NCBI RefSeq assembly: GCF_055900595.2
Contig: NZ_CM148325.1
Length of the DNA: 64,000 bases
Reading direction: 5' to 3' (one strand)
The position numbers were made by a program. Of the stretch, positions 42,601 through 45,600 are shown piece by piece; the first letter of the stretch is position 1; each line of letters begins with the position of its first letter.

Positions 42601-45600
42601 ATATTGATAAAGTGAATTTCATGCATAAGCTCTATACTGGATTCTTTTGGCAAAGACCTTACGATCAACGTAACTATTTAAAAATAAATCGTTCTGCTAT
42701 TTCAAACAGCAAAACATTTCACTTCCACTTTGATTTTAATGATTTGCGAAATATTTACAAAGAATATAATAAAAATCATAAAGATGATAGTTTTGATAAA
42801 ATGCAAAAGATTTTTTTAGCATTGAATGAATTTAAGGAAAGAACGAAAATAAATTATAGGGATTATAGAAAAGTATCAAAATATGTAGATGATAAAGTCG
42901 ATTTATTCTCTGGCATTGAGCAATACTTACGGTGGGTAATTGAGAAAAATAATGACTATAATAAGGAAAATTATGGCGATATAAAAGACAAATATGCCAA
43001 ACTTATTGTCGAAAGAAATGATTTAGTCGATACTAAGGATCAATTGATTAAAGAGGATTTTTACTTAAATAATAAAGACAATAAAGATAAAAAAGATGCG
43101 GAAAGAATTAATGAGATTAAGGGGATAATAAAGGTGATAGATGGAAAAATACCAAATATAAGTAAAGAGATTCTACATCTTAAGGATGAAACAGAGAGAT
43201 TGGAGAAAGAGTATCAACAAGAAAATACACTTAATGATGTAGTTCAAAATATCAGGAGTTGGCTAAAAGAAAATGAAAATATGGTGAAAGCTATTAAGAA
43301 AATTGATACTGAATAACATGGCGAATAAATAAACGGATCAAGTCGTTCCTGTGACAATGAGGTTATACGAAAAGACGCTTACTCATCAGAAATTTGGTAT
43401 GCTTTAATTAAACCAGTGTCGCTGATGTGTAAGCGTTGACGTTGGGAGGCGATTAAATGGTTATACCACTCCTACGCCTTTTCCAGACGGCGTATAAGAG
43501 TGCAACATGTTGAGTTTTCCGAGCGAATGGTGCATTTTACTAACCGAGCCATTTGAAACAACCAACGCAATAAAAAAGACTGGAATAATAAGCCTGTATT
43601 TATTATTCATCGCAATCGCACTCTACGGTTTTATCCTGCAGAAATGAGACTACTTCCAGCGGTTGTGGATTATCCCTGGACGATAGTCATAGTCTGGTGT
43701 CAGGATTCACAAATGACCTGTTACCTGACATGGATATAAACACAACATAGAGTGCGGTAGTTAATCTGAATCATCTATTTTTCGGCTACACAGCACAAAA
43801 CAACATTATTGATTCTTTATAAGAGAGAATCTCTCCATTATTTTTATATAAATCATTATTAAGAAAATCCAGAAGCTCTTGCCTTACACTATAAATATTG
43901 ACTTTTTGGTCAACCAACGACAGTAATATATCCTTGATACCTTTTAATTTCATATTTCTATCAGATATTGTATTAAAAGTGAAGATGATATTACGTTTAT
44001 TACAACTGGAGAACCAATATTTTAGAGTATTATTCGTCCACTTTGTTGGTGTCTTAATTAGTTGCGCTGTTGTTGTTTTTACATTGTTAAATGTAGAACC
44101 GCTAAAATTTGTCCCGACGCACGAAATGAAATTCATCTCTGAATTGTCAAAATTGCAATTCTTTATCTCACACATATCAAGGTTAACATCATGAAATGTC
44201 GAATATTTCATGTTTGCATGTGAAAATAAACATGCAATAAACGTTATATATTGCAACCTGGCATTACAAAAAGATTTATTTTTAAAATCAAAACAAAAGG
44301 TTTTTTTTATTTTGAAATTGTTATTATATCTGCAATGTAAAGAAATCATGTTTTTTATTAACTGATAACACCATTGTGATGATTCTGGTAATTCATAGGG
44401 ATGTAAATGGATGTTTTCATCGAATATAACCTGTGAGTTATGGTTGTTTATTGAAGATATATGGAAGCTATCATTTGTTAAAGCTATGGTTGTGCTAAAA
44501 TTATGGTGGTGATCAGCGCTCATGAAATCAAATGTAACAATGTCGTTGTTTTCTTTCTTTTCTTTGTGATATGCGTTTAAAAAAGAAATATTTTCGAACT
44601 GTTCATCAGTTAATGTCAATGGCATTTCGTCATCAAAGAAAGCGTAATCGGCATTTGGGACTGGAATATTTTCAATTGAGCATAGTTTTAATAAAAAAAT
44701 ATGAAAACAATGGAACTTATTTTTGTCAATAAGAGAACTTAATCTCTGTTGTATCTTCTGTAGTTGTCCTTTGGGAAGTAAATGCTGTAAATTTGAAAAA
44801 GAGCCATCTAAAACATATTTGTATGTAAAAAGGTCCTCTCTCTGACCAGTTATCAAAAAATCGTCAGGTATTTTAGAAAAACGATTGATATGACATAAAT
44901 ATTCCATTTGCTCCATGTCTATATACTTATGGGGAACTGCATAGTTTGGTGGAGTGCCAATAAGATTTTCCATAAATCACCTTGGTAACATATTATAAAA
45001 TCTATTTATTCTAACATTGACAATATAACCAGCTATAAAAAATCGCTCATTTTCAGATATTGCGGTTTACCTGAGGGATGATTCGTTATGCCTAAAAATT
45101 GGGAATCCAAGGTAAACACCCTGGATTAAATCGGGGGAAATGAGCTATTTTTTATAGTCTTCACTAGTAATATAAGTAACACTTGTTGCTAACCTGGCTA
45201 GCGGTAGTGTTAATTAACAATCTAGATGTCGTTATTTTTAAACACCCTAATATTGCACATCGGAGGATTTATGGTTGCTAAATTAAGATCAGATGTTCTT
45301 ATAAATGCTAATCCCTTTTCAGAGGTGAAAAATGAGAAGCATAAGCATAACGGATATTCTGACAAGGTTACTTTAGATATTAATAATAAGAAATACGATG
45401 TAAATTTTAAGGATATTGAAAATATTCTGGATGGTAATGGGGCATTATTTAAAAAACGTACACTGTGGGAGTTTATTCGCGATCTTTTTCCCGGATCGCA
45501 TATTAAACAAGTTAAAAGCTTAATTTACGAATTTGTGACAAAAAATGATAATAAAGCGGAGATGTTCAAGAATATTAAATCTCTGGCCAAAGTAGAAGAA

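What the first reader, a model, noticed from the sequence alone, without database searches (positions are those of the whole stretch)
43438..43785. GC-normal spacer inside the AT-rich island, with a possible 49-aa signal-peptide ORF
Between hairpin copy 1 and the 3' end of the 395-aa gene the composition returns to near core-like values. The spacer contains a short minus-strand ORF (43461-43610; MNNKYRLIIPVFFIALVVSNGS...) with a hydrophobic N-terminus. It could be a remnant of the ancestral locus, a small membrane or secreted peptide, or noise.
Basis: seen in the sequence. Interest (0 to 1): 0.3.

Follow-up and report, generated by a model that had tools for sequence, protein, structure and literature searches.

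The report
Decayed remains of yieH and cbrC
The 348-base "spacer" is the decayed remains of two ordinary chromosomal genes (yieH and cbrC) trapped between imported effector genes, and its 49-codon reading frame is an accidental splice of those remains, not a secreted peptide.

Summary
The window is an E. coli chromosome. It carries the published "Z-locus" (Z5211-Z5214: EspY5, EspX3, EspY4) next to phoU, where K-12 has the bgl island.

GC is 41.7%, against 30.5% for the island and 49.9% for the core, so it is intermediate rather than core-like.

The whole interval is accounted for by homology. It holds:
- the last ~11 codons of yieH;
- yieH codons 106-127, after a 241-nt internal deletion;
- the first 148 nt of cbrC, with in-frame stops;
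- 71 nt of cbrC upstream DNA.

E. albertii, two other Escherichia species and Pseudocitrobacter have phoU-cbrC-yieH-adeP, so this is ancestral DNA into which the AT-rich genes were inserted.

The ORF is a chimera: out-of-frame cbrC (the "signal peptide"), then in-frame yieH, then out-of-frame yieH. The evidence against a real gene:
- it evolves neutrally (pN/pS 0.91);
- it loses its ATG in O157:H7 and O169:H41;
- it has no Shine-Dalgarno;
- RefSeq does not annotate it.

Verdict: an ordinary pseudogene relic. It is useful only as a marker of how the island was built. Low interest.

The parts
43370..43448 (.). Hairpin copy 1 and its flanks. Arms are 43375-43389 and 43422-43436. This is the left edge of the finding and part of the segment duplicated from the yieH 3' flank.
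   Evidence: It is 80-85% identical to 47727-47806, which lies next to the intact yieH. Both 15-nt arms are identical in the two copies. It occurs only in Z-locus genomes, up to two copies per genome.
43449..43487 (-). Relic of the 3' end of yieH: about 4 nt of 3' flank, the old stop codon (43453-43455) and the last ~11 codons.
   Evidence: The blastn alignment 43370-43487 vs 47727-47844 runs through the hairpin into yieH. Conceptual translation LLYAVWKRRRSGITI* compares with YieH ...LPALWKARGWDIAR*.
43488..43498 (.). 11 nt at the site of a net 241-nt deletion inside the yieH relic. The deletion causes a frameshift.
   Evidence: There are 11 nt here where the intact yieH has 252 nt between the two aligned blocks (47845-48096).
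43499..43562 (-). Relic of yieH codons 106-127 (VVSNG..KM.HSLGKLNMLH). This is the only part of the 49-aa ORF that is in an ancestral reading frame.
   Evidence: 83% nt identity to window yieH 48097-48160. tblastn 19/23 aa, E 3e-10. 84% hit to annotated yieH in strain N64. 80-86% to all Escherichia yieH alleles tested except K-12 (72%) and E1V33 (77%).
43563..43710 (-). Relic of cbrC (yieJ) nt 1-148. The start codon is ATG->GTG (43708-43710). There are stops at codon 8 and at two adjacent codons aligning to CbrC 36-37.
   Evidence: 74.8% identical over 111 nt to annotated cbrC in most of the ~3,500 non-Z-locus genomes that matched the spacer. tblastn 22/36 aa to CbrC 14-49, E 6e-13. 73% to E. 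albertii cbrC over 148 nt. Weak Pfam UPF0167 hit, E 0.019, below the cut-off.
43711..43781 (-). Relic of the 71 nt upstream of cbrC, the cbrC-proximal part of the ancestral cbrC-yieH intergenic region. It ends at the 3' end of the 395-aa (EspX3) gene.
   Evidence: A single blastn alignment, 43563-43781 vs E. albertii, 71% over 221 nt, E 1e-31. The upstream part is 64% identical to E. albertii.
43461..43610 (-). The 49-aa ORF, a chance chimera. Residues 1-16 are cbrC read out of frame. Residues 17-38 are YieH 106-127 in frame. Residues from about 40 are junction sequence followed by the yieH C-terminus read out of frame.
   Evidence: Deposited by some pipelines under the YieH product name. No RefSeq feature lies under it.
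43507..43647 (+). Antisense 46-aa ORF across the same relics. Also a chance ORF.
   Evidence: Interrupted by a stop at codon 18 in 4 of 9 sampled strains. No Pfam hit.
40391..40504 (.). The other end of the ancestral DNA: the phoU-cbrC intergenic region with a REP-like element, and about 27 nt of the cbrC 3' end. This marks the left boundary of the AT-rich DNA.
   Evidence: Window 40001-40504 is 86% identical to E. albertii through phoU, the intergenic region and into the cbrC 3' end. K-12 homology stops at 40377. The cbrC part is weak, about 19/27 nt.
47727..48475 (-). Hairpin copy 2 (arms 47732-47746 and 47780-47794) and the intact yieH (47810-48475). This is the present-day counterpart (putative source) of the copied segment.

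Best explanation
The interval is non-functional debris of the ancestral core locus phoU-cbrC-yieH-adeP.

The AT-rich effector genes (EspY5, EspX3, EspY4; the published Z5211-Z5214 'Z-locus') were inserted into that locus. What remains between EspY5 and EspX3, read on the minus strand, is:
- 71 nt of cbrC upstream DNA;
- the first 148 nt of cbrC, now with a GTG start and three in-frame stops;
- a direct junction to yieH codons 106-127;
- a frameshifting 241-nt deletion;
- the last ~11 codons and stop of yieH;
- a copy of the hairpin that also follows the intact yieH.

Shown: the homologies, the lesions, the ancestral gene order and the neutral evolution.

Inferred: a segment running from the yieH 3' flank into yieH was copied and joined to cbrC nt 148. 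The simplest event giving that junction is a head-to-tail duplication of the interval cbrC-nt148 ... yieH-codon106. After it, one AT-rich block sits to the left of each hairpin.

The 49-aa ORF is a by-product of those junctions and does nothing.
For: Locus identity:
- The gene order is pstCAB-phoU, type III effector, pentapeptide protein, espY4, yieH, adeP.
- The same 501 nt is found in 1094 of 5426 complete E. coli genomes, always on the chromosome and once per genome.
- It was described as the Z-locus, an alternative to bgl (PMC2646131). Sakai names are EspY5'/EspX3'/EspY4 (PMC5931665).

Homology:
- Most of the ~3,500 genomes without the island match 43563-43673 inside annotated cbrC; one listed match covers 43499-43562 inside annotated yieH.
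- Local blastn and tblastn give YieH 106-128 at 19/23 aa (E 3e-10) and CbrC 14-49 at 22/36 aa with two in-frame stops (E 6e-13).

Ancestral order:
- E. albertii, Escherichia sp. E1V33 and Pseudocitrobacter vendiensis have phoU|cbrC|yieH|adeP. Escherichia sp. MOD1-EC7003 has cbrC|yieH|adeP, with yieK to the left of cbrC.
- The spacer aligns to E. albertii from cbrC nt 148 through the start codon and 71 nt upstream (71% over 221 nt, E 1e-31).
- The window keeps the E. albertii-type phoU end (..GKDPKE*), intergenic region and about 27 nt of cbrC 3' end at 40391-40504. K-12 diverges at 40377.

No selection on the ORF, from nine full-length strain sequences:
- pN/pS is 0.91 and variable sites by codon position are 5/11/8.
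- ATG is ATA in 2 of the 9.
- In a tenth lineage (RMDEC465) the ORF is removed by a deletion.
- The hydrophobic-region residues are not conserved.
- Anti-SD pairing is -2.4 kcal/mol, against a background mean of -2.6 and -4.1 to -9.5 for real genes nearby.
- There is no promoter-like site for it and no Rfam match.
- There is no RefSeq feature. Other pipelines label the exact peptide with the YieH product name.
Against: - The ORF stays open at the same length (150 nt, no indel, no stop) in all nine full-length sequences sampled. Gene callers have called it on more than 1000 contigs.
- Between strains the spacer is less diverged (90-100%) than the neighbouring effector genes, which fall into allele classes only ~77% identical. 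Some constraint on the DNA cannot be excluded.
- The duplication model is only inferred. EspY5 and EspY4 are near saturation (35% aa, 45% third-position identity) while the hairpin and yieH copies are 74-85% identical. The effector genes may therefore not have been part of the duplicated unit.
- The rare RMDEC465-type locus joins a truncated espY5 to the same cbrC breakpoint. The model does not predict this.
- No expression data were available.
Confidence: 0.9

Rival explanations
1. The 49-aa ORF encodes a real small membrane or secreted protein. It would be a young gene assembled from gene debris, whose N-terminus acts as a signal peptide or membrane anchor.
For: - In the window allele the N-terminus has a basic n-region and a 12-residue hydrophobic core (maximum 12-aa Kyte-Doolittle score 3.29).
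- The frame is open and of constant length in 9 of 9 full-length sequences sampled.
- Several annotation pipelines call it.
Against: - The N-terminus is cbrC read out of frame.
- pN/pS is 0.91, with no third-position excess.
- The start codon is lost in O157:H7 and O169:H41, and the ORF is deleted in the RMDEC465 type.
- The hydrophobic core is broken in other alleles (ALVVSN becomes ALNHST; maximum score falls to 2.08).
- There is no Shine-Dalgarno and no promoter-like site on its strand.
- It is not annotated by RefSeq.
Confidence: 0.04
2. The relic DNA is retained because it does something in cis. It might supply the 3' ends or terminators of the convergent espY5 and espX3 transcripts. Or, as a conserved block between hypervariable effector alleles, it might serve as a homology anchor for exchange of effector cassettes by recombination.
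For: - The hairpin arms are identical in both copies, and the hairpin is the least variable segment between strains (0.127 variable sites per nt, against 0.15-0.22 for the relics and 0.415 for the stop-to-hairpin stretch).
- The spacer and espX3 stay 85-100% identical between strains whose espY5 or espY4 alleles are only ~77% identical. That mosaic pattern is expected if recombination breakpoints fall in the conserved blocks.
Against: - The hairpin has a 32-nt loop and no T-run on either strand, and the terminator scan found nothing in the spacer.
- Relic variability (15-22% variable sites in nine strains) is what unconstrained DNA would show.
- A role as a recombination anchor would be a passive consequence of being shared DNA, not an evolved function.
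Confidence: 0.06
3. The spacer is simply intergenic DNA that arrived with the AT-rich island from the donor and has nothing to do with the recipient's core genes.
For: It lies inside the island and is absent from K-12-type genomes as a contiguous block.
Against: Significant, collinear homology to cbrC, its upstream region and yieH, in the orientation and relative order of the ancestral locus, with the matching cbrC 3' end at the island's left edge.
Confidence: 0.01

Closest known systems
cbrC (yieJ), PF03691/UPF0167 colicin E2 tolerance protein gene of E. coli K-12 and E. albertii
   Same: Window 43563-43710 is homologous to its first 148 nt and 43711-43781 to its upstream region. It has the same strand and the same position relative to phoU and yieH as in E. 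albertii.
   Different: Only a quarter of the gene is left. The start is ATG->GTG and there are three in-frame stops. About 27 nt of the 3' end lie 3 kb away at roughly 40478-40504. It is not a gene any more.
yieH, HAD-family 6-phosphogluconate phosphatase gene
   Same: Two fragments (codons 106-127, and the last ~11 codons plus stop) with the downstream hairpin, in the same orientation as the intact yieH 4.3 kb away.
   Different: It is a second, partial copy. It has a 241-nt frameshifting deletion and lacks the N-terminal half of the gene, which includes the conserved DxD motif region (FFDCDG, visible in the intact YieH translation). It is fused head-on to the cbrC fragment.
Z-locus (Z5211-Z5214; bgl/Z locus type III) of Sankar et al. 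2009, PLoS Genet 5:e1000405
   Same: The same chromosomal island between phoU and yieH, with ~30% GC and the two paralogous large ORFs. It is present in 19% of their strains and 20% of complete genomes here.
   Different: The paper treats the island as four ORFan genes that 'presumably replaced' bgl. Its main text holds no occurrence of remnant, truncat-, pseudogene or duplicat-. It states that yieJ is found only in K-12, S. flexneri and E. albertii. Here fragments of yieJ and a second partial yieH are found inside the island, and the island's left junction is of the E. albertii (type V) kind, not the bgl kind.
Small ORFs created by pseudogene junctions (spurious or proto-gene ORFs)
   Same: An ATG-to-stop frame that spans two unrelated gene fragments, is picked up by gene callers, and is given a misleading product name by homology transfer.
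   Different: Nothing here indicates translation or selection.

Membership tests
Pseudogene relic of ancestral core genes | Significant sequence homology to known genes | tested here: met
   cbrC: tblastn E 6e-13, blastn E 1e-31 to E. albertii. yieH: tblastn E 3e-10, blastn 83% over 64 nt. Database-wide hits fall inside annotated cbrC and yieH.
Pseudogene relic of ancestral core genes | Position and orientation consistent with the ancestral gene order at this locus | tested here: met
   phoU(+)|cbrC(-)|yieH(-)|adeP(+) in E. albertii, Escherichia sp. E1V33 and Pseudocitrobacter, and cbrC(-)|yieH(-)|adeP(+) in MOD1-EC7003. The relics are on the minus strand between phoU and yieH, and the cbrC 3' end lies at the left island edge. 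The yieH fragment sits on the 'wrong' side of cbrC, so a duplication is needed.
Pseudogene relic of ancestral core genes | Disabling lesions | tested here: met
   Both genes are truncated. There are in-frame stops at cbrC codon 8 and at two adjacent codons aligning to CbrC 36-37, and a 241-nt frameshifting deletion in yieH.
Pseudogene relic of ancestral core genes | Neutral pattern of substitution | tested here: met
   pN/pS is 0.91 and codon-position counts are 5/11/8 in the ORF frame. 15-22% of sites are variable in nine strains. The sample is small.
Functional CbrC (UPF0167) gene | Full-length (~195 aa) open reading frame matching the Pfam model above its cut-off | tested here: not met
   Only 49 codons with three stops. 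PF03691 scores 15.2 bits against a cut-off of 25.
Functional YieH (HAD phosphatase) gene | Full-length (221 aa) frame that includes the N-terminal half with the conserved DxD motif region | tested here: not met
   Only residues 106-127 are in frame. There is no HAD Pfam hit for the 49-aa ORF.
Small secreted or membrane protein with an N-terminal signal peptide | n-region, hydrophobic core and polar c-region | tested here: inconclusive
   Present by eye and by hydropathy in the window allele (score 3.29). It is shortened or broken in other alleles (2.08-2.65). No dedicated signal-peptide predictor was available.
Small secreted or membrane protein with an N-terminal signal peptide | Start codon and ribosome-binding site conserved | tested here: not met
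   ATG is ATA in O157:H7 and O169:H41. Anti-SD pairing is -2.4 kcal/mol, which is background.
Small secreted or membrane protein with an N-terminal signal peptide | Purifying selection on the protein sequence | tested here: not met
   pN/pS is 0.91.
Small secreted or membrane protein with an N-terminal signal peptide | Evidence of translation | not testable with these tools
   No ribosome-profiling or proteomic data were accessible. A literature search on the locus found only mRNA-level data for the flanking genes.
Known structured RNA (Rfam) | Match to a covariance model | tested here: not met
   No hit in 43300-43900 at E<=1.

The most novel reading that the evidence does not exclude
The chimeric 49-codon frame is a proto-gene. 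It would be a small membrane-inserted peptide born from the fusion of out-of-frame cbrC, in-frame yieH and out-of-frame yieH debris, translated at low level in the lineages that keep the ATG, and too young or too weakly selected for pN/pS to show it in nine sequences.
Probability: 0.04. Interest if true: 0.45.

Novelty: new member of a known kind. Interest (0 to 1): 0.15.

Why it matters
In itself it matters little, because gene fragments left at island junctions are commonplace. It has three modest uses.

1. History of a well-studied polymorphic locus. The Z-locus keeps the E. albertii-type phoU end, the phoU-cbrC intergenic region and both ends of cbrC. It was therefore built into an ancestral phoU-cbrC-yieH arrangement rather than derived from a bgl-carrying one. 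That refines the 'bgl was replaced' wording of Sankar et al. 2009. It also shows that a partial duplication of the cbrC-yieH interval was part of the assembly.

2. A neutral yardstick. The relic sits between effector genes that occur as ~77%-identical allele classes, so it is useful for asking whether those alleles arose by diversifying selection or by import.

3. An annotation warning. This exact 49-aa peptide sits in public databases on more than 1000 contigs, in part under the name of a phosphatase it cannot be.

Tried and rejected
- **Rfam scan** of 40000-49000 at E<=1. Nothing in the spacer, only a sub-threshold REP-like naRNA4 hit at 40402-40463.
- **Promoter and terminator scan** of 43200-44000. 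Two promoter-like sites against 3.7 expected, none serving the ORF. The one terminator-like site lies inside the 395-aa gene.
- **Hairpin as a dispersed mobile repeat.** Rejected: it occurs only in Z-locus genomes, at most twice per genome (median 2), and never elsewhere.
- **Spacer as a leftover of K-12's bgl-yieLK-cbrB genes.** There is no similarity to cbrB beyond noise (best tblastn E 0.012 over a gapped 43 aa) and none to the bgl side.
- **Whole-module tandem duplication** (espY + hairpin + yieH copied together) as a settled account. Not supported by divergence: EspY5 and EspY4 have 35% aa and 45% third-position identity, near the 32% expected from composition, against 74-85% for the hairpin and yieH copies. 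Each effector gene also has ~77% allele classes, so this argument is not decisive either way. The duplication is kept as an inference about the core segment only.
- **Intermediates.** The one scan of genome contigs gave the ancestral type but no locus with an intact cbrC next to espX3-espY4. The RMDEC465-type variant (4 genomes) is not an intermediate but a further rearrangement.
- **Closest yieH allele to the relic.** Uninformative: 72-86% identity to the alleles tested over 64 nt, with no clear nearest allele.
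Full report
**What the window is.** ORF listing and comparison with annotated genomes place the finding in an E. coli chromosome. The order is pstCAB-phoU (phoU ends at 40390), then an AT-rich block from about 40.5 to 47.7 kb, then yieH (47810-48475, minus strand) and adeP. The AT-rich block holds three genes:
- a 794/839-aa 'type III effector protein' (ends 43316, plus strand);
- a 395-aa pentapeptide-repeat gene (43786-44973, minus strand);
- an 800/815-aa gene annotated espY4 in most genomes (ends 47673, plus strand).

In K-12 the same place holds bglGFBH-yieLK-cbrC-cbrB. This is the 'Z-locus' (Z5211-Z5214) of Sankar et al. 2009, the alternative to the bgl island. It was found in 19% of their strains (PMC2646131) and in 1094 of 5426 complete genomes here. 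In O157 Sakai nomenclature the genes are EspY5', EspX3' (split there, intact here) and EspY4 (PMC5931665).

**Checking the observation.** The interval 43438-43785 is exactly the gap between the right arm of a hairpin (arms 43375-43389 and 43422-43436) and the stop codon of the 395-aa gene. The 49-aa minus-strand ORF 43461-43610 is there.

GC is 41.7%. Over 348-nt windows of the rest of the island the mean is 30.5%, sd 2.5 and maximum 36.8, so the shift is real. The non-island part of the window averages 49.9%, so 'near core-like' overstates it.

**What the DNA is.** A sensitive BLAST of the interval against all complete E. coli genomes gave the lead. Most of the ~3,500 matching genomes that lack the island match 43563-43673 at 74.8% inside annotated cbrC, and one listed hit matches 43499-43562 at 84% inside annotated yieH. 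RefSeq annotates nothing under the interval itself. Local alignments then resolved the whole interval, here read left to right on the plus strand:

| Coordinates | Content |
|---|---|
| 43370-43487 | Aligns to 47727-47844: the hairpin next to the intact yieH plus the last ~11 codons and stop of yieH |
| 43488-43498 | 11 nt where the intact gene has 252 nt, a net 241-nt frameshifting deletion |
| 43499-43562 | yieH codons 106-127 (83% nt; 19/23 aa, E 3e-10) |
| 43563-43673 | cbrC codons 14-49 (22/36 aa, E 6e-13), with two in-frame stops |

**The ancestral arrangement.** One scan of the species-representative genome collection with a degenerate cbrC pattern returned four relevant species: E. albertii, Escherichia sp. 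E1V33, Escherichia sp. MOD1-EC7003 and Pseudocitrobacter vendiensis. In all four, cbrC lies directly next to yieH on the same strand, with a ~150-206-nt spacer that carries a terminator-like hairpin. In three of them phoU lies on the other side of cbrC. This agrees with the 'type V' locus that Sankar et al. reported for E. albertii.

Against E. albertii the window aligns in a single block from cbrC nt 148, through the start codon (now GTG, 43708-43710), to 71 nt upstream of it. That block is 43563-43781, 71% over 221 nt, E 1e-31, with 73% identity in the coding part and 64% upstream. This accounts for the remainder of the finding's interval up to the EspX3 stop.

At the other end of the island, window 40391-40504 matches the E. 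albertii phoU-cbrC intergenic region, a REP-like element and about 27 nt of the cbrC 3' end. The last part is weak, about 70%.

K-12 homology stops at 40377, inside the last codons of phoU. The Z-type and E. albertii PhoU end in ..GKDPKE, while K-12 ends in ..GKDSDK. So the island-bearing locus descends from a phoU-cbrC-yieH arrangement, not from a bgl-bearing one. The GC content of the relic (41.7%) is simply that of its E. albertii counterpart (39.7%).

**The ORF.** Reading the three minus-strand frames against CbrC and YieH shows what the 49 codons are:
- Residues 1-16 (MNNKYRLIIPVFFIAL) are cbrC codons ~34-49 read one base out of frame. In the cbrC frame the same bases read CDCDE**IQAYYSSLFYCV.
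- Residues 17-38 (VVSNGSVSKMHHSLGKLNMLHS) are YieH 106-127 in frame.
- The tail (..TPSGKGVGVV*) is junction sequence followed by the yieH C-terminus read out of frame, because of the 241-nt deletion.

The apparent signal peptide is therefore out-of-frame cbrC run on into the hydrophobic strand that precedes the SNG motif of YieH.

In nine full-length strain sequences spanning 91-100% identity the frame stays open at 150 nt. Even so, the evidence points to no selection:
- the ATG is ATA in O157:H7 and O169:H41;
- the hydrophobic core changes (ALVVSN to ALNHST, ALAYSN or ALVDSN);
- variable sites fall 5/11/8 by codon position;
- summed pairwise pN/pS is 0.91.

In the RMDEC465 lineage a deletion removes the yieH-derived part of the frame and its stop, leaving only the cbrC-derived start.

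Pairing of the 22 nt upstream with the anti-Shine-Dalgarno sequence is -2.4 kcal/mol. That equals the window-wide background (-2.6) and is far from the -4.1 to -9.5 of neighbouring real genes. No promoter-like site serves the ORF and Rfam finds nothing.

The exact peptide is in public databases, on more than 1000 contigs. It was called by non-RefSeq pipelines and is partly named 'phosphoenolpyruvate and 6-phosphogluconate phosphatase' or 'putative phosphatase'. That is the YieH name transferred by homology, and it corroborates the origin independently. The antisense 46-aa ORF is interrupted by a stop in four of nine strains.

**How the relic arose (inference).** A yieH fragment lying on the phoU side of a cbrC fragment cannot come from a deletion of the ancestral order, so a copy of the yieH end had to be made. 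The homology between the two copies runs from about 5-10 nt (weakly up to ~50 nt) left of the hairpin, through the hairpin (both arms identical, loops diverged), into yieH.

The hairpin is confined to Z-locus genomes, at most two copies each. It sits 33 nt from the yieH stop, where E. albertii, K-12 and N64 have a different terminator hairpin that shares only the GCTTAC/GTAAG core.

A head-to-tail duplication of the interval from cbrC nt 148 to yieH codon 106 produces the observed yieH-106|cbrC-148 junction in one step. It also puts one AT-rich block to the left of each hairpin.

Whether the effector genes were inside the unit at that time is open. EspY5 and EspY4 are close to saturation (35% aa; third-position identity 45% against 32% expected by composition), whereas the hairpin and yieH copies are 74-85% identical. 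However, each effector gene also exists as allele classes only ~77% identical between strains whose spacers are 91-100% identical. Effector divergence at this locus is therefore not clock-like. A recombination between two haplotypes with one illegitimate junction is an alternative that I cannot exclude.

**Unexplained.** Four genomes (RMDEC465 type) carry a ~76%-identical espY5 allele truncated at about codon 515. It is joined directly to the cbrC relic at the same nt-148 breakpoint, within 0-3 nt, with flanks ~95% identical to the window. Either a deletion happened to end at the older junction, or cbrC nt 148 is an older boundary than the model assumes.

**Comparison with the literature, and verdict.** The locus is published. 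The key paper describes four ORFan genes that 'presumably replaced' bgl, states that yieJ (cbrC) is found only in K-12, S. flexneri and E. albertii, and does not mention fragments or duplication.

The relic is thus a small addition to a known picture, and in kind it is entirely ordinary: decayed gene fragments at island junctions. Interest is low (0.15). The only reading with any novelty is a proto-gene born from the debris, to which I give about 4%.

Noticed in passing
window 45271-47673: The window's espY4 is a rare, deeply divergent allele. It is >=95% identical in only 18 of 1105 Z-locus genomes and mostly ~78-80% identical in the other ~1087. RefSeq calls it 'hypothetical protein' in the identical genome.
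   Followed up: partly
window 40932-43316 vs loci L002, L006-L009: espY5 also falls into two allele classes: 92-96% to 6EVA, TUM18530 and CB8671, but ~77% to O157:H7 and N3. The spacer and espX3 between the effector genes stay 85-100% identical. The locus is a mosaic of conserved blocks and hypervariable effector cassettes.
   Followed up: partly
window 40377-40390 (3' end of phoU): PhoU ends ..GKDPKE in the window and in E. albertii, but ..GKDSDK in K-12. Homology to K-12 stops 13 nt before the stop codon. The bgl island's left junction therefore lies inside phoU's last codons, and the Z-type locus keeps the ancestral end.
   Followed up: yes
window 43375-43436 and 47732-47794: Two copies of a long hairpin with 15-nt arms that are identical between copies and 32-33-nt loops that differ. 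It is found only in Z-locus genomes. It occupies the position of the ancestral yieH terminator hairpin (CTCCCTT.GCTTACC...GGTAAGTGAAGGGAG), with which it shares only the GCTTAC/GTAAG core. No T-run follows on either strand.
   Followed up: partly
L003 4240-5141 (E. coli RMDEC465) and three similar genomes: A rare variant of the locus. A ~76%-identical espY5 allele is truncated at about codon 515 and fused to the cbrC relic at the same breakpoint as the window's yieH|cbrC junction. Its cbrC relic has lost 70 nt but lacks the two stops aligning to CbrC codons 36-37.
   Followed up: partly
window 40402-40463: A REP-like element just after phoU. It gives a sub-threshold Rfam match to naRNA4 (35.4 bits against a gathering score of 59.5) and is shared with E. 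albertii.
   Followed up: no
L015 and L016 (Escherichia sp. E1V33, MOD1-EC7003), cbrC-yieH intergenic region: The ~206-nt intergenic region contains the start codon and the first ~10 codons of K-12 cbrB (MSVSRRVIHH) but no cbrB gene. Either cbrB was largely deleted there, or it was inserted in the E. coli lineage at this same spot, which is also where espX3-espY4 sit in the Z-locus.
   Followed up: no
window 43786-44973 vs L002 7002-7673: The 395-aa pentapeptide gene (EspX3) is intact in the window and most sampled strains. In O157:H7 it is annotated only as a 672-nt CDS, and is listed as the split pseudogene ECs4654/ECs4655.
   Followed up: no
window 40647-40706 and 45104-45163: The regions upstream of espY5 and espY4 share a 60-nt block (70% identical, E 5e-6) containing an AAATGAGC.ATTTTTTA.AG motif. 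The motif also forms an inverted pair at 45033-45052 / 45138-45157. It may be a common regulatory site.
   Followed up: no
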